From Escherichia coli (GTDB lineage Bacteria; Pseudomonadota; Gammaproteobacteria; Enterobacterales; Enterobacteriaceae), in NCBI RefSeq assembly GCF_003334405.1, contig NZ_QOWM01000004.1: a stretch of 64,000 nt of DNA; one strand, 5' to 3'. Positions 59,157-62,957 of this stretch are shown here, piece after piece. How positions within the stretch are numbered: the stretch's first letter is position 1; each line of letters starts with the position of its first letter. The notes beneath the pieces were generated by a model. The model was not told where the DNA came from. It made no database searches and saw only the letters and a list, made by a program, of their open reading frames with translations. The translations under genes and the position numbers were made by a program.

Positions 59157-59516
59157 GTGGCAGAAGAAACTATATTCAGCAAAATTATTCGTCGTGAGAT
59201 CCCCTCCGATATCGTCTACCAGGATGATCTGGTAACGGCGTTTCGCGATATTTCGCCGCAAGCGCCAACGCATATTCTGATCATTCCGAATATCCTCATT
59301 CCGACTGTGAACGACGTCTCAGCTGAGCATGAGCAGGCGCTGGGACGCATGATCACCGTAGCGGCAAAAATTGCTGAGCAAGAAGGTATTGCCGAAGATG
59401 GCTATCGTCTGATCATGAATACCAACCGCCATGGCGGACAAGAGGTTTACCACATCCATATGCACTTGTTGGGTGGCCGTCCGCTGGGACCAATGCTGGC
59501 GCATAAAGGTCTGTAA
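59157..59516 (+). CDS. hinT: HinT (YcfF), HIT-family purine nucleoside phosphoramidase
   Basis: ORF track 59139-59516 trimmed to GTG at 59157 ([16 protein letters not shown]); HIT motif HIHMHLLGG. Confidence 0.9.
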
Positions 59517-59518
59517 CG

Positions 59519-59896
59519 ATGAGAAAAGGATGCTTTGGGCTGGTGTCTCTGGTGTTGTTACTGCTGGTGGGCTGTCGTTCACATCCGGAAATTCCGGTGA
59601 ATGATGAGCAATCGCTGGTGATGGAGTCATCTTTATTGGCTGCGGGCATCAGTGCAGAAAAGCCCTTCCTTTCGACGTCTGATATTCAACCTTCAGCATC
59701 CTCAACGCTTTATAACGAAAGGCAAGAACCCGTTACCGTTCATTATCGTTTTTACTGGTATGACGCCAGAGGGCTGGAGATGCATCCTCTGGAAAGGCCA
59801 CGCAGCGTTACCATTCCCGCACATTCGGCGGTAACGCTGTACGGCAGCGCCAATTTTCTGGGGGCGCACAAAGTCAGACTTTATCTATATTTGTAA
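59519..59896 (+). CDS. ycfL: YcfL, small lipoprotein of unknown function
   Basis: ORF track; lipobox LLLLVGC; 125 aa. Confidence 0.88.
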   Translation: MRKGCFGLVSLVLLLLVGCRSHPEIPVNDEQSLVMESSLLAAGISAEKPFLSTSDIQPSASSTLYNERQEPVTVHYRFYWYDARGLEMHPLERPRSVTIPAHSAVTLYGSANFLGAHKVRLYLYL

Positions 59897-59909
59897 GGGG
59901 TGAATCTTG

Positions 59910-60551
59910 ATGACAAAAATGAGTCGCTACGCCTTGATTACCGCGCTGGCGATGTTTCTCGCCGGGTGTGTGGGGCAACGTGAACCTGCACCGGTAGAAG
60001 AAGTGAAACCAGCGCCGGAACAACCAGCCGAGCCACAACAGCCTGTCCCCACAGTGCCCTCGGTGCCGACGATCCCGCAGCAGCCAGGCCCAATTGAGCA
60101 CGAAGATCAAACTGCACCGCCTGCGCCGCATATTCGCCATTATGACTGGAATGGCGCAATGCAGCCGATGGTCAGTAAGATGCTTGGGGCTGACGGGGTG
60201 ACTGCGGGTAGCGTCCTGCTGGTTGATAGCGTTAACAACCGTACTAACGGTTCGCTGAATGCCGCAGAAGCGACCGAAACGCTGCGAAATGCGCTGGCTA
60301 ATAACGGGAAATTTACCCTGGTTTCCGCCCAGCAACTGTCGATGGCGAAGCAACAGTTAGGTTTGTCGCCGCAGGACAGTTTAGGCACCCGTAGTAAAGC
60401 CATAGGCATTGCCCGCAATGTCGGCGCTCATTACGTGCTGTACTCCAGCGCCTCTGGCAACGTTAACGCTCCGACCCTACAAATGCAGCTGATGCTGGTG
60501 CAGACGGGCGAAATTATCTGGTCAGGTAAAGGTGCCGTTTCGCAGCAATAA
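59910..60551 (+). CDS. lpoB: LpoB (YcfM), outer-membrane lipoprotein activator of PBP1B
   Basis: ORF track 59907-60551 trimmed to [20 protein letters not shown]; Pro/Gln-rich linker then globular domain. Confidence 0.92.
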
Positions 60552-61356
60552 TCCCATCACGCGCGACGAATTGCTGTCGCGCTTTTTCCCGCAGTATCAT
60601 CCCGTCACGACGTTTAATAGTGGGCTTAGTGGCGGGAGTTTTCTCATTGAACATCAGGGCCAGCGTTTTGTTGTGCGTCAGCCGCACGATCCTGATGCGC
60701 CGCAGTCCGCGTTCTTGCGCCAGTATCGGGCTTTATCACAACTACCCGCATGCATTGCACCGAAGCCGCATTTATATCTCCGTGACTGGATGGTAGTCGA
60801 CTATCTGCCCGGCGCGGTAAAAACGTATTTGCCGGATACCAACGAACTGGCAGGCTTGCTGTATTATCTACATCAACAACCACGTTTTGGCTGGCGAATA
60901 ACGCTGTTGCCGTTACTGGAACTGTACTGGCAGCAAAGCGATCCGGCGCGGCGGACAGTGGGTTGGCTGCGAATGTTAAAACGTCTGCGCAAAGCGCGGG
61001 AACCACGGCCTTTACGCTTAAGTCCATTGCATATGGATGTCCACGCCGGAAATTTAGTGCATAGCGCGTCAGGGTTAAAACTCATCGACTGGGAGTATGC
61101 CGGAGATGGTGATATCGCGCTGGAACTGGCGGCGGTGTGGGTGGAAAATACTGAACAGCACCGGCAATTGGTCAATGACTATGCCACTCGCGCGAAGATT
61201 TATCCGGCGCAATTATGGCGTCAGGTCAGGCGATGGTTTCCCTGGCTGCTGATGCTCAAAGCAGGGTGGTTTGAGTACCGCTGGCGACAAACCGGCGATC
61301 AACAATTTATCAGGCTGGCCGATGACACCTGGCGGCAGCTATTAATAAAACAATAA
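60532..61356 (+). CDS. thiK: ThiK (YcfN), thiamine kinase
   Basis: ORF track; 274 aa; overlaps lpoB 3' end by 20 nt. Confidence 0.9.
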
Positions 61357-61366
61357 GGAGAGCAGT

Positions 61367-62392
61367 GTGGGTCCAGTAATGTTGGATGTCGAAGGTTACG
61401 AACTGGACGCGGAAGAGCGTGAAATACTGGCGCATCCGCTGGTGGGAGGGCTGATTCTCTTTACGCGTAACTATCATGATCCTGCCCAGTTACGTGAACT
61501 GGTGCGCCAGATCCGCGCAGCTTCGCGCAATCGTCTGGTGGTGGCGGTTGATCAGGAAGGTGGACGCGTGCAGCGTTTTCGTGAAGGTTTTACCCGCTTG
61601 CCAGCGGCGCAATCATTCGCTGCGCTGTCAGGAATGGAAGAGGGTGGCAAACTGGCGCAGGAGGCAGGTTGGTTGATGGCCAGCGAAATGATCGCTATGG
61701 ATATTGATATCAGCTTTGCGCCTGTGCTGGATGTCGGGCATATCAGCGCGGCGATTGGCGAGCGTTCTTATCATGCCGATCCACAAAAAGCCCTGGCAAT
61801 TGCCAGCCGGTTTATTGATGGTATGCATGAAGCCGGAATGAAAACGACCGGGAAACACTTCCCAGGACACGGTGCAGTAACGGCAGACTCACACAAAGAA
61901 ACACCGTGCGATCCACGTCCACAAGCGGAGATTCGCGCTAAAGATATGTCGGTCTTCAGTTCCTTAATCCGCGAAAATAAACTCGACGCCATTATGCCTG
62001 CGCATGTGATCTACAGTGATGTTGATCCGCGTCCGGCGAGCGGTTCTCCCTACTGGCTGAAAACCGTTTTGCGTCAGGAACTGGGTTTTGACGGCGTGAT
62101 TTTCTCTGACGATTTATCGATGGAAGGTGCCGCGATTATGGGCAGTTATGCCGAACGCGGGCAGGCTTCACTGGATGCGGGTTGCGATATGATCCTGGTC
62201 TGCAATAATCGTAAAGGGGCCGTCAGCGTGTTAGATAATCTGTCACCGATCAAGGCAGAACGTGTTACACGTTTGTATCATAAAGGTTCATTTTCGCGAC
62301 AGGAACTGATGGACTCGGCTCGCTGGAAAGCGATCAGCACCCGTCTGAATCAGTTACATGAACGCTGGCAGGAAGAGAAAGCAGGTCACTAA
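61367..62392 (+). CDS. nagZ: NagZ, beta-N-acetylglucosaminidase (GH3, murein recycling)
   Basis: ORF track; 341 aa; GH3 motifs (KHFPGHG). Confidence 0.95.
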
Positions 62393-62414
62393 CCCTGGCT
62401 TATGTGAGGAAGCG

Positions 62415-62957
62415 ATGATTATCTATTTACACGGTTTTGACTCTAACAGTCCGGGTAACCACGAGAAAGTCTTACAATTGCAGTTTATTGACCCGGATGT
62501 ACGCTTGATAAGCTACAGTACGCGGCATCCGAAACATGATATGCAGCATCTGCTTAAAGAAGTGGACAAAATGTTGCAACTGAACGTTGACGAGCGTCCG
62601 CTAATTTGCGGCGTTGGCTTGGGCGGATACTGGGCGGAACGGATTGGTTTTCTTTGCGACATCCGCCAGGTGATCTTCAACCCTAATTTGTTCCCTTATG
62701 AGAACATGGAAGGCAAGATTGATCGCCCGGAAGAGTATGCCGATATTGCCACTAAGTGTGTGACCAACTTCCGTGAGAAGAATCGCGATCGTTGCCTGGT
62801 GATTTTGTCGCGTAATGATGAAGCGCTTAACAGCCAGCGGACATCTGAAGAGTTGCATCATTATTACGAGATTGTCTGGGACGAAGAGCAGACGCACAAA
62901 TTCAAGAATATCTCCCCGCATTTACAGCGCATTAAAGCGTTCAAAACCCTCGGGTAA
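62415..62957 (+). CDS. ycfP: YcfP, UPF0227 alpha/beta-hydrolase-fold protein of unknown function
   Basis: ORF track 62358-62957 trimmed to [19 protein letters not shown] (180 aa). Confidence 0.88.

What the first reader, a model, noticed from the sequence alone, without database searches (positions are those of the whole stretch)
59157..62957. hinT-ycfL-lpoB-thiK-nagZ-ycfP operon with two uncharacterised members and a 20-nt gene overlap
Six genes are packed with gaps of 2-22 bp; thiK overlaps the lpoB 3' end by 20 nt. The operon mixes a HIT phosphoramidase, the PBP1B activator LpoB, thiamine kinase and the murein-recycling enzyme NagZ with two proteins of unknown function (lipoprotein YcfL, alpha/beta-hydrolase YcfP). 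Co-expression with LpoB and NagZ makes YcfL and YcfP candidates for cell-wall-related roles.
Basis: partly seen in the sequence, partly recalled or inferred. Interest (0 to 1): 0.4.

Follow-up and report, generated by a model that had tools for sequence, protein, structure and literature searches.

The report
Known E. coli hinT-to-ycfP operon

Summary
The window is E. coli K-12, and the six genes lie at exactly the stated coordinates with gaps of 2, 13, -20 (overlap), 10 and 22 nt. [quoted passage not shown] Gene order is conserved in 75/75 Enterobacteriaceae species with enough flank, and in Yersinia, Dickeya and Pantoea. The thiK start inside lpoB is conserved in 76/76 loci.

- YcfP has a confident YqiA-esterase fold, but its nucleophile serine is replaced by glycine (G-V-G-L-G) in every YcfP-type protein seen. 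78 of 81 family representatives keep Ser. YcfP is the most constrained protein in the cluster and always follows nagZ (88/88 loci), even in a distant genome that lacks the other four genes nearby.
- YcfL is an outer-membrane Ig-like lipoprotein (DUF1425). Its closest fold match, Cj0090, is encoded beside an LpoB homolog.
- A hairpin directly after the lpoB stop shows repeated compensatory changes at synonymous sites. Published 3'-end maps show no 3' end there, but do show Rho-dependent termination inside thiK.

The cell-wall roles proposed for YcfL and YcfP remain plausible but untested.

The parts
59061..59090 (+). Promoter-like site (TTGAAA-18-CATACT) about 65 nt upstream of hinT; candidate operon promoter
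   Evidence: Consensus scan only. Such sites are no more frequent here than in shuffled sequence (5 found, 5.4 expected), so this is weak evidence.
59157..59516 (+). hinT, purine nucleoside phosphoramidase (HIT family), GTG start
   Evidence: RefSeq annotation; NCBIfam NF007965, 264.5 bits against a cut-off of 206.
59519..59896 (+). ycfL, DUF1425 lipoprotein. The lipobox is LVGC (Cys19) followed by Arg, so it is predicted to be outer-membrane anchored. The mature part is an Ig-like beta-sandwich.
   Evidence: Pfam PF07233, E 4e-26. Lipobox conserved in 66 orthologs and never followed by Asp. AF2 model pLDDT 81. Best PDB matches are 4gio (Cj0090) and 3o0l (DUF1425). Listed among outer-membrane lipoproteins with a disordered linker.
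59910..60551 (+). lpoB, outer-membrane lipoprotein activator of PBP1B
   Evidence: RefSeq annotation; NCBIfam TIGR02722, 218 bits against a cut-off of 110.55.
60532..60551 (+). 20-nt lpoB/thiK overlap containing the thiK GTG start; site of probable translational coupling
   Evidence: An overlapping start is conserved in 76/76 loci. Overlaps of 20, 23 and 17 nt are called in Yersinia, Dickeya and Pantoea.
60532..61356 (+). thiK, thiamine kinase; the fastest-evolving gene of the cluster
   Evidence: NCBIfam NF007620, 554.5 bits. Median identity to E. coli across genera is 61%; dN 0.23-0.51.
60561..60589 (+). Conserved RNA hairpin (GCGCGACG-AATTGC-TGTCGCGC, 60561-60582) plus U-run (60583-60589). 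It starts 10 nt after the lpoB stop and lies within thiK codons 10-20.
   Evidence: Found by the terminator scan. dG -14.1 kcal/mol. 96.6% of cells paired in 68 species against at most 56% in slid controls. Pair 13-28 is CG 35 / UA 28 / UG 5 with no mismatch and changed state at least 8 times on a tree. No Rfam family matches. No Term-seq 3' end is reported here.
61040..61060 (+). Approximate position of a published Rho-dependent termination region inside thiK (genome coordinate 1163767)
   Evidence: Adams et al. 2021, supplementary file 2. Coordinates converted with an offset of 1,102,718 checked on two sequence anchors.
61367..62392 (+). nagZ, cytoplasmic beta-N-acetylglucosaminidase of muropeptide recycling (GH3)
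   Evidence: NCBIfam NF003740, 537 bits.
62415..62957 (+). ycfP, a UPF0227/YqiA-like alpha/beta-fold protein with no signal peptide. Asp135 and His161 are retained, but the nucleophile is missing.
   Evidence: Pfam PF05728, E 1e-77. AF2 model pLDDT 94. Best PDB matches are the YqiA esterases 9bi7 (TM 0.80) and 4fle. Lowest dN of the six genes.
62610..62627 (+). Codons 66-71 of ycfP, G-V-G-L-G-G. This is the nucleophile elbow, with Gly68 (62616-62618) where the family has the catalytic Ser.
   Evidence: HMMER alignment to the YqiA structures. 78/81 family representatives have Ser at this position. GVGLGG is present in 88/88 genomic loci and in all partial representatives.
63014..63082 (.). REP-type palindromic element (naRNA4-like) in the ycfP-ndh spacer, marking the distal end of the unit
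   Evidence: Rfam RF02564, 56.5 bits, just under the gathering score of 59.5. A Rho-termination 'orphan' region lies at about window 63196.

Best explanation
[quoted passage not shown] It is a known operon whose gene order is fixed across Enterobacterales.

How it most likely works:
- One promoter upstream of hinT gives a polycistronic mRNA (from the literature, plus inference).
- The very short spacers allow ribosomes to pass from gene to gene (inference).
- thiK starts at a GTG 20 nt inside lpoB, so its translation probably depends on ribosomes finishing lpoB. The conservation is shown; the coupling is inferred.
- An evolutionarily selected RNA hairpin begins 10 nt after the lpoB stop (shown), and a Rho-dependent termination region lies inside thiK (published). 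Together they probably step down expression of the distal genes relative to hinT-ycfL-lpoB (inference).

The unit is best read as older modules joined together.
- An envelope-facing part, hinT-ycfL-lpoB. YcfL is an outer-membrane-anchored Ig-like lipoprotein that probably acts by protein-protein contact in the periplasm, near LpoB/PBP1B.
- A cytoplasmic pair, nagZ-ycfP.

YcfP has the YqiA esterase fold. It keeps the oxyanion-hole motif and the Asp-His pair, but Gly replaces the nucleophilic Ser, and clade-specific invariant residues surround the old pocket. It is therefore most likely not a classical serine esterase. I think it is a ligand-binding protein or a non-canonical catalyst acting on something connected with NagZ (inference).
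For: - Identity and layout.
- Prior description as an operon: PMC3130732, PMC11731830, PMC4974736, PMC3946193.
- Synteny: 75/75 Enterobacteriaceae species with enough flank, plus Yersinia, Dickeya and Pantoea.
- Overlapping thiK start conserved in 76/76 loci.
- Hairpin: 96.6% of cells paired, CG/UA/UG switching at synonymous sites with no mismatch, at least 8 independent state changes. Other genera and Dickeya carry a stronger GC stem plus U-tract in the same region.
- Rho termination region in thiK.
- Modules: nagZ-ycfP adjacent in 88/88 loci, including a genome without the other four genes nearby. hinT ... DUF1425 linked without lpoB in a Shewanella-type genome. Cj0090 lies beside the LpoB homolog Cj0091.
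- YcfP: Ser replaced by Gly; YqiA-like fold; lowest dN of the six genes; clade-specific invariant residues flanking the active site.
- YcfL; vancomycin resistance of ycfL::Tn.
Against: - I generated no transcript data. The papers read here call it an 'apparent operon' from in silico analysis or list it as a transcription unit.
- The curated Term-seq table of Adams et al. has no 3' end at the hairpin, so it is not a strong terminator in K-12 under those conditions. Its role (attenuation, coupling or RNA stability) is undecided.
- Synteny within one order may simply be inherited. hinT and thiK have no known cell-wall role.
- ycfL::Tn may be polar on lpoB.
- I found no phenotype for ycfP.
- K. 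pneumoniae YcfP was enriched by a fluorophosphonate probe, which would not be expected for a protein without a reactive serine. However, non-hydrolases (purC, iolG, ackA, rpoB) were enriched to a similar degree in the same list.
Confidence: 0.8

Rival explanations
1. Mixed-bag operon. The six genes stay together in Enterobacterales only by inheritance and shared expression convenience. YcfL and YcfP have nothing to do with the cell wall.
For: HinT (a phosphoramidase linked to DadA activity) and ThiK (thiamine salvage) are functionally unrelated to LpoB and NagZ. Keio mutants of the other genes showed no alanine-utilisation phenotype. The meropenem TraDIS study highlights lpoB only, and I found no ycfL or ycfP entry in its supplements. 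In a Shewanella-type genome DUF1425 is not next to lpoB.
Against: The nagZ-ycfP pair survives in a distant genome where the rest of the operon is absent from the locus and is adjacent in 88/88 loci. A YcfL-like fold lies beside an LpoB homolog in Campylobacter. ycfL::Tn shares vancomycin resistance with lpoB::Tn. YqiA-type family members give bacitracin and carbenicillin phenotypes.
Confidence: 0.3
2. YcfP is still an active hydrolase. It uses a different nucleophile (for example Ser10 or Ser12 next to the oxyanion loop) or a water molecule activated by His161-Asp135, in a remodelled pocket.
For: Asp135, His161 and the HGF oxyanion motif are retained. YcfP-specific invariant residues (D9, S12, P13, G14, H16, N91, loop 98-108, K162) surround the old active site. 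The sequence is extremely constrained. YcfP was enriched by FP-biotin in K. pneumoniae.
Against: No residue occupies the nucleophile elbow (Gly68 in 88/88 loci). The FP enrichment rests on 2 peptides, and its value is similar to that of clear non-hydrolases in the same list. I found no report of enzymatic activity for YcfP itself; the assayed relatives all carry Ser.
Confidence: 0.3
3. The hairpin after lpoB is a partial intrinsic terminator (attenuator) that ends many transcripts after lpoB. A ribosome stopping at the lpoB stop codon or translating thiK counteracts it.
For: It has a GC-rich 8-bp stem followed by UUUUUCC. The ribosome footprint at the lpoB stop would reach the 5' arm, since there are only 9 nt between the stop codon and the stem (sequence). 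Dickeya and eight Enterobacteriaceae genera have a textbook stem plus U-tract in the same region. Selection on pairing is shown.
Against: No 3' end is reported at genome ~1163300-1163307 in the curated E. coli Term-seq table, and there are no lpoB or thiK entries in the TERMITe supplements. In most species the U-tract is interrupted (UAUUUC). The stem could instead bias post-termination ribosomes back to the thiK GTG, or act as an exonuclease barrier.
Confidence: 0.35

Closest known systems
[quoted passage not shown]
   Same: Identical sequence, gene order and boundaries. It is cited as an operon in PMC3130732, PMC11731830, PMC4974736 and PMC3946193.
   Different: Nothing differs; this is that unit. 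In the papers I could read I did not find the order-wide conservation of the thiK overlap, the selected hairpin, or the missing YcfP nucleophile.
YqiA-type esterases (Pfam UPF0227; PDB 9bi7, 4fle)
   Same: Same fold (TM 0.80 and 0.76) and same Pfam family. The HGF oxyanion motif, Asp and His are conserved.
   Different: YqiA has the triad Ser69-Asp147-His172 and hydrolyses C2-C10 esters. YcfP has Gly at the Ser position, a distinct set of invariant pocket-flanking residues, and a fixed position downstream of nagZ. The closest Ser-type relatives are not near nagZ.
Nucleophile-less alpha/beta-hydrolase-fold proteins such as neuroligins (Ser to Gly) and CGI-58/ABHD5 (Ser to Asn). This comparison is from my own knowledge and was not tested here.
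   Same: An intact fold with the catalytic Ser substituted, strong conservation, and function through binding rather than classical hydrolysis.
   Different: Those are eukaryotic, and their partners are known. For YcfP no ligand or partner is known, and Asp and His are kept.
DUF1425 lipoproteins (PDB 3o0l, Shew_1734) and C. jejuni Cj0090 (PDB 4gio) in the cj0089-cj0091 lipoprotein operon
   Same: YcfL matches Pfam DUF1425, and its model superposes on both structures (E about 2e-5, rmsd 1.3-2.4 A). Cj0090 lies next to Cj0091, reported to be the ortholog of the LpoB homolog HP1457, mirroring ycfL-lpoB.
   Different: Sequence identity is only 14-19%. No function is established for any of them. 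The Shewanella-type DUF1425 gene is linked to hinT and two thioesterase genes, not to lpoB.
Translational coupling through overlapping stop and start codons, and intra-operon attenuation by hairpins or Rho (general bacterial mechanisms, from established knowledge)
   Same: The thiK start lies within the last 20 nt of lpoB, a stem follows directly after the stop, and Rho termination maps within the poorly conserved thiK.
   Different: A 20-nt overlap is longer than the common 1- or 4-nt overlaps. Neither coupling nor attenuation has been measured here.

Membership tests
Operon (single co-directional transcription unit) | Same strand, with short or negative intergenic distances | tested here: met
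   Spacings of 2, 13, -20, 10 and 22 nt, all on the + strand.
Operon (single co-directional transcription unit) | Gene order conserved across genera | tested here: met
   75/75 Enterobacteriaceae species with enough flank, plus Yersinia, Dickeya and Pantoea.
Operon (single co-directional transcription unit) | One continuous transcript covering all six genes | not testable with these tools
   Literature only: 'apparent operon' and a transcription-unit listing. A Rho termination region inside thiK suggests read-through is only partial.
Serine hydrolase of the alpha/beta-hydrolase fold (YcfP) | Alpha/beta-hydrolase fold | tested here: met
   AF2 model pLDDT 94; best PDB matches are the YqiA esterases, TM 0.80 and 0.76.
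Serine hydrolase of the alpha/beta-hydrolase fold (YcfP) | Nucleophilic Ser in the G-x-S-x-G elbow | tested here: not met
   YcfP has G-V-G-L-G. Gly68 aligns with the YqiA Ser. 78/81 family representatives have Ser. All 88 YcfP-type loci have Gly.
Serine hydrolase of the alpha/beta-hydrolase fold (YcfP) | Acid and His of the triad, and the oxyanion-hole motif | tested here: met
   Asp135, His161 and HGF are invariant in YcfP orthologs and nearly invariant across the family.
Serine hydrolase of the alpha/beta-hydrolase fold (YcfP) | Hydrolytic activity or covalent labelling by serine-directed probes | tested here: inconclusive
   FP-biotin enrichment in K. pneumoniae (2 peptides, value 2.92), but non-hydrolases have similar values. 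I found no enzyme assay for YcfP.
Pfam UPF0227 (YqiA/YcfP family) | Significant full-length match to the family profile | tested here: met
   PF05728, E 1.3e-77, residues 1-177. NCBIfam NF003431, 352.9 bits against a cut-off of 240.
DUF1425 / YcfL lipoproteins | Match to PF07233 | tested here: met
   E 4.3e-26, residues 31-124.
DUF1425 / YcfL lipoproteins | Lipoprotein signal peptide with a lipobox Cys, and no Asp at +2 (outer-membrane sorting rule, established knowledge) | tested here: met
   LVGC followed by R in E. coli. The pattern L/I/V-x-G/A-C is conserved in 66 orthologs, with +2 being R, G, S, H or K in 65 of them.
DUF1425 / YcfL lipoproteins | Ig-like beta-sandwich fold like PDB 3o0l | tested here: met
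   Foldseek E 2.8e-5, rmsd 1.3-1.5 A over 84 columns; model pLDDT 81.
LpoB (PBP1B activator) | Equivalog-level match | tested here: met
   TIGR02722, 218 bits against a cut-off of 110.55.
NagZ, ThiK, HinT | Equivalog-level matches | tested here: met
   NF003740 537 bits, NF007620 554.5 bits, NF007965 264.5 bits; all above their cut-offs.
Intrinsic (Rho-independent) terminator, for the hairpin at 60561-60589 | GC-rich stem-loop followed by a U-tract | tested here: met
   8-bp stem with 6 GC pairs, dG -14.1 kcal/mol, then UUUUUCC. In many species the U-tract is interrupted.
Intrinsic (Rho-independent) terminator, for the hairpin at 60561-60589 | Mapped RNA 3' end at the U-tract | tested here: not met
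   There is no entry near genome 1163300-1163307 in the curated 3'-end table of Adams et al., and none in the TERMITe supplements.
Structured RNA element under selection, for the hairpin at 60561-60582 | Compensatory base-pair changes beyond what relatedness explains | tested here: met
   4 of 8 pairs change on both sides. 0/500 shuffles reach the observed covariation score. Slid controls pair at most 56% of cells, against 96.6%. There are at least 8 state changes for pair 13-28 on an independent tree, and never a mismatch.

The most novel reading that the evidence does not exclude
YcfP is a conserved 'pseudo-esterase': a YqiA-fold protein that lost its catalytic serine, remodelled the pocket, and became an obligate genetic partner of NagZ. 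It might bind a muropeptide-recycling intermediate or modulate NagZ, and so influence cell-wall recycling or beta-lactamase induction. In parallel, the selected coding-region hairpin at the lpoB/thiK overlap would be a translation-linked device that sets the ratio of the envelope genes (hinT-ycfL-lpoB) to the cytoplasmic genes (thiK-nagZ-ycfP).
Probability: 0.25. Interest if true: 0.55.

Novelty: already known. Interest (0 to 1): 0.3.

Why it matters
As submitted, the finding restates a catalogued E. coli operon, so by itself it changes nothing. The follow-up gives sharper, testable handles on two long-standing "y-genes".

- YcfP should no longer be treated as a generic esterase. It lacks the nucleophile, yet it is the most constrained protein in the cluster and is always tied to nagZ. 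That points experiments towards ligand or partner binding in muropeptide recycling, a pathway relevant to AmpC induction in other Enterobacterales.
- YcfL is a small Ig-like outer-membrane lipoprotein. A look-alike in Campylobacter also sits beside an LpoB homolog, which makes a direct test with LpoB/PBP1B reasonable.
- The hairpin at the lpoB/thiK overlap is a clean example of RNA structure selected within overlapping coding sequence. It could explain how one operon delivers very different amounts of its products.

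Tried and rejected
1. Alternative thiK start (in-frame TTG at 60571) that would remove the overlap. Rejected: it is not conserved, whereas a start overlapping lpoB is present in 76/76 loci.
2. YcfP as a decaying gene. Rejected: it has the lowest dN of the six genes, and 79 of its positions are invariant across the 11 aligned Gly-type orthologs.
3. Ser-type relatives as nagZ-linked ancestors. Rejected for the three I sampled: they sit in T4-like phage or integrase/defence contexts.
4. The single genome-contig scan with a YcfP alignment kept only the 80 best loci, all Enterobacteriaceae. 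So it could not test linkage outside the order. I compensated with six exact-protein look-ups.
5. PDB sequence search with YcfL alone found nothing. A profile gave only a marginal hit to 3o0l (E 0.43). The relationship was established by fold comparison instead.
6. The search seeded with the 3o0l fragment returned a single protein, giving only one distant DUF1425 context.
7. I looked for a mapped 3' end at the hairpin. There is none in the curated table of Adams et al. and none in the TERMITe supplements.
8. I looked for ycfL or ycfP fitness values in the meropenem TraDIS supplements and found none.
9. The Rfam scan of 58700-63500 found no known RNA family at the hairpin, only a REP-like naRNA4 match downstream of ycfP.
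10. Whole-segment folding of 60520-60600 was not more stable than shuffles (z = -0.13). The local 41-nt fold is modestly so (z = -1.96). The case for the hairpin rests on covariation, not on energy.
11. dN/dS ratios are unreliable because dS is saturated, so I use only the dN ranking.

Full report
**Observation.** The region is E. coli K-12. Window 59000-63100 is 100% identical to MG1655. All 5426 complete E. coli genomes have a match, and 5424 cover at least 80% of the query. RefSeq annotation, converted to window coordinates, gives hinT 59157-59516, ycfL 59519-59896, lpoB 59910-60551, thiK 60532-61356, nagZ 61367-62392 and ycfP 62415-62957, all on the + strand (ORFs; sequence). NCBIfam equivalog models identify HinT, LpoB, ThiK, NagZ and YcfP above their curated cut-offs; YcfL has no NCBIfam model. 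Pfam gives DUF1425 for YcfL and UPF0227 for YcfP.

[quoted passage not shown] It is listed as one transcription unit in a meropenem TraDIS study where lpoB is the top sensitising hit (PMC11731830). Other papers cite it as an operon. A multicopy clone carrying hinT-ycfL-lpoB-thiK' suppresses an ftsEX null, which the authors attribute to lpoB. The finding as submitted is therefore not new.

**Conservation.**
- All 75 scanned loci with enough upstream sequence carry the six genes in the same order and orientation. The five shorter ones are cut by contig ends.
- Exact-protein look-ups show the same HIT-DUF1425-LpoB-APH-GH3-UPF0227 order, followed by ndh, in Yersinia, Dickeya and Pantoea.
- Median protein identities to E. 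coli are hinT 93%, ycfL 75%, lpoB 79%, thiK 61%, nagZ 89% and ycfP 94%.
- Synonymous divergence is saturated, so dN/dS is rough. The dN ranking is clear: ycfP is lowest (0.02-0.07) and thiK highest (0.23-0.51).

**The overlap.**
- In a nucleotide alignment of the junction from 76 loci, the GTG inside ...AAAGGTGC... is present in 75. The exception has an in-frame TTG two codons downstream.
- The overlap is 20 nt in most loci and 23 nt where lpoB has one more codon.
- In 25 loci this GTG is the only start codon available near the N-terminus. The downstream TTG at window 60571 in K-12 is not conserved.
- Gene callers give overlaps of 20, 23 and 17 nt in Yersinia, Dickeya and Pantoea.
- The overlap is thus real and old. 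That it couples thiK translation to lpoB is an inference from established knowledge of overlapping genes.

**A selected hairpin.**
- The terminator scan flagged GCGCGACG-AATTGC-TGTCGCGC followed by TTTTTCC at 60561-60589. It begins 10 nt after the lpoB stop and lies within thiK codons 10-20. It folds at -14.1 kcal/mol.
- In 68 species with the homologous sequence, 96.6% of pair cells are standard pairs, against at most 56% when the 3' arm is slid. Four of eight pairs change on both sides, and no shuffle reaches the observed covariation score.
- The key pair involves the third codon positions of an Arg and a Ser codon. It is CG in 35 species, UA in 28 and UG in 5, and never mismatched. On a tree built from NagZ, HinT and LpoB it changes state at least eight times. 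Protein-level selection cannot explain this.
- Eight other Enterobacteriaceae genera and Dickeya have a different, stronger stem (CCGGCGG...CCGCCGG, -19 to -23 kcal/mol) with a U-tract about 30-55 nt after the lpoB stop. Yersinia has a weaker version and Pantoea has none that is obvious.

**What the hairpin does is open.**
- The curated Term-seq table of Adams et al. (not truncated in the held copy) has no 3' end near the expected genome position 1163300-1163307. It lists a 3' end inside ycfL (window 59716). Its Rho table lists a termination region inside thiK (genome 1163767, window about 61049) and one in the ycfP-ndh spacer (window about 63196).
- The TERMITe supplements have no entry for these genes, and Rfam has no family there.
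- I therefore treat strong intrinsic termination in K-12 as not supported. Weak attenuation, promotion of re-initiation at the upstream GTG, or 3' protection of the hinT-lpoB segment all remain possible.
- The published Rho site inside the poorly conserved thiK already argues that the distal genes are not simply co-expressed with lpoB.

**YcfP.**
- The HMMER alignment to the two solved YqiA esterases places YcfP's [11 protein letters not shown] opposite VGSSLGGYYA. The nucleophile Ser of G-x-S-x-G is Gly68 in YcfP.
- The K. pneumoniae YqiA structure has the triad Ser69-Asp147-His172 and hydrolyses C2-C10 esters.
- All intact sequences among the 120 closest Enterobacterales orthologs read GVGLGG (one GIGLGG; the exceptions are two apparently frameshifted entries and one N-terminally truncated one), with Asp135 and His161 kept.
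- A search of 1.84 billion cluster representatives found 326 relatives. Of the 81 full-length ones among the top 150, 78 have Ser at this position. Only three have Gly: the E. coli cluster, one cluster at 59% identity (P0242), and one phage protein. Every partial YcfP-like representative that covers the elbow also has GVGLG, as do all 88 genomic loci.
- An AlphaFold model built from an 81-sequence alignment is confident (pLDDT 94). It puts residue 68 between strand 63-67 and helix 69-80, which is the elbow, and it matches YqiA best (TM 0.80 and 0.76).
- Residues invariant in YcfP but rare in Ser-type members cluster beside the canonical active-site elements: D9, S12, P13, G14 and H16 after the HGF oxyanion motif, V67 and G68, N91, the 98-108 loop, and K162 next to His161. 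This looks like a remodelled pocket and not a dead one.
- YcfP has no signal peptide; the first beta-strand starts at residue 2. Like NagZ, it should be cytoplasmic.

**YcfP and nagZ.**
- nagZ is immediately upstream on the same strand in 88/88 YcfP-type loci.
- The 59% cluster comes from a 4.8-Mb genome (GenBank CP020373.1; I believe a Shewanella, from memory and not verified). There nagZ-ycfP sits after a divergently oriented serine dehydratase gene, with no hinT, ycfL, lpoB or thiK within 10 kb.
- mfd and lolCDE lie nearby in that genome, as they do in E. coli, so part of this is old regional synteny.
- The nearest Ser-type relatives are not near nagZ. They sit on T4-like phage contigs and on integrase/HEPN/Fic islands.
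- Against a purely non-catalytic reading: K. pneumoniae YcfP was among ten 'serine hydrolases' enriched by FP-biotin. The dataset shows 2 peptides and an enrichment value of 2.92, while purC (2.99), iolG (3.31), ackA (2.48) and rpoB (2.28) are enriched alongside it. That evidence is weak.
- YqiA-type mutants in several bacteria are sensitive to bacitracin or carbenicillin, and Price et al. label the family 'hydrolase affecting the cell envelope'. That concerns Ser-bearing members.

**YcfL.**
- The lipobox (LVGC in K-12) is conserved in 66 orthologs and is never followed by Asp, which predicts outer-membrane sorting (sorting rule from established knowledge). A survey of E. coli lipoproteins lists YcfL among outer-membrane lipoproteins with a disordered N-terminal linker.
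- The AlphaFold model (pLDDT 81) is a beta-sandwich. Its only strong PDB matches are C. jejuni Cj0090 (4gio) and the DUF1425 protein Shew_1734 (3o0l).
- According to PMC11394524, Cj0090 lies in the cj0089-cj0091 lipoprotein operon, and Cj0091 is the ortholog of HP1457, an LpoB homolog. So a YcfL-like protein beside an LpoB-like protein recurs far outside the enterics.
- In a Shewanella-type genome, however, the DUF1425 gene follows a hinT ortholog (77% identical) and two 4HBT thioesterase genes, with no LpoB gene nearby.
- In E. coli, transposon insertions in ycfL and in lpoB were both among 50 vancomycin-resistant mutants, together with many murein hydrolase and Mla mutants. An insertion 13 bp upstream of lpoB may simply be polar.

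**Verdict.** It gains some support from neighbourhoods outside the order and from one phenotype, but it remains unproven, and hinT and thiK show that membership in this operon does not guarantee a cell-wall role. The added value of this check lies in three points: YcfP is a serine-less member of an esterase family tied to nagZ; the lpoB/thiK overlap is ancient; and an RNA hairpin at that junction is under selection while its function is unknown. I did not find the first and third points in the papers available to me, but I could not search curated databases, so I rate the overall novelty as already known and the interest as modest.

Noticed in passing
L010 2294-2851; L006 1900-2457; L008 8001-8594: The closest Ser-type relatives of YcfP (27-36% identity) are encoded on T4-like phage contigs (neighbours gp23, UvsY, gp19; gp32, gp59) and on an island with integrase, HEPN/AbiU2, Fic and Cap4-nuclease genes. 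One phage copy (P0336, GSGIGG) has independently lost the nucleophile Ser.
   Followed up: partly
window 59716 (+), inside ycfL: Adams et al. list a Term-seq 3' end internal to ycfL (genome 1162434). I see no obvious hairpin or explanation for it.
   Followed up: no
window 62968-62997 and 63014-63082: The ycfP-ndh spacer has REP/BIME-type palindromes: a 10-bp perfect stem (GCATCAGGTA...TACCTGATGC) right after the ycfP stop, and a naRNA4/REP-like Rfam match (56.5 bits, just under the gathering score). A published Rho-termination 'orphan' region lies at about 63196.
   Followed up: partly
window 63283-63336: An AT-rich 25-nt inverted repeat (80% complementary, 4 nt apart) lies just upstream of ndh. 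It is probably part of the heavily regulated ndh promoter region; an H-NS-associated constitutive promoter is reported between ycfP and ndh.
   Followed up: no
L003 11226-12464 (GenBank CP020373.1): In the distant genome carrying the 59%-identical nagZ-ycfP pair, a CsiV-family gene (PF10972, tied to PBP1A function in Vibrio according to my own knowledge) lies two genes downstream on the opposite strand, next to mfd and lolCDE.
   Followed up: no
L091 6538-8246; L092 2017-3725: In a Shewanella-type genome, hinT is followed by two 4HBT-family thioesterase genes and then the DUF1425 lipoprotein gene. This suggests a hinT-ycfL linkage that is older than, and independent of, lpoB.
   Followed up: partly
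window 62182-62209 (+), inside the 3' part of nagZ: A promoter-like site with an extended -10 (TTGCGA-16-TG-AATAAT) lies about 200 nt upstream of ycfP. It is a consensus match only and no more than expected by chance, but it could give ycfP some independent expression.
   Followed up: no
L094 about 4041-4072 (Dickeya) and L073, L075, L050, L085, L080 about 30-55 nt after the lpoB stop: A near-perfect intrinsic-terminator shape (CCGGCGG-loop-CCGCCGG followed by a U-tract) is embedded in the first ~30 codons of thiK in Dickeya and in eight Enterobacteriaceae species of five named genera (Buttiauxella, Cedecea, Franconibacter, Siccibacter, Entomohabitans). It is not homologous in position to the E. 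coli-type hairpin.
   Followed up: partly
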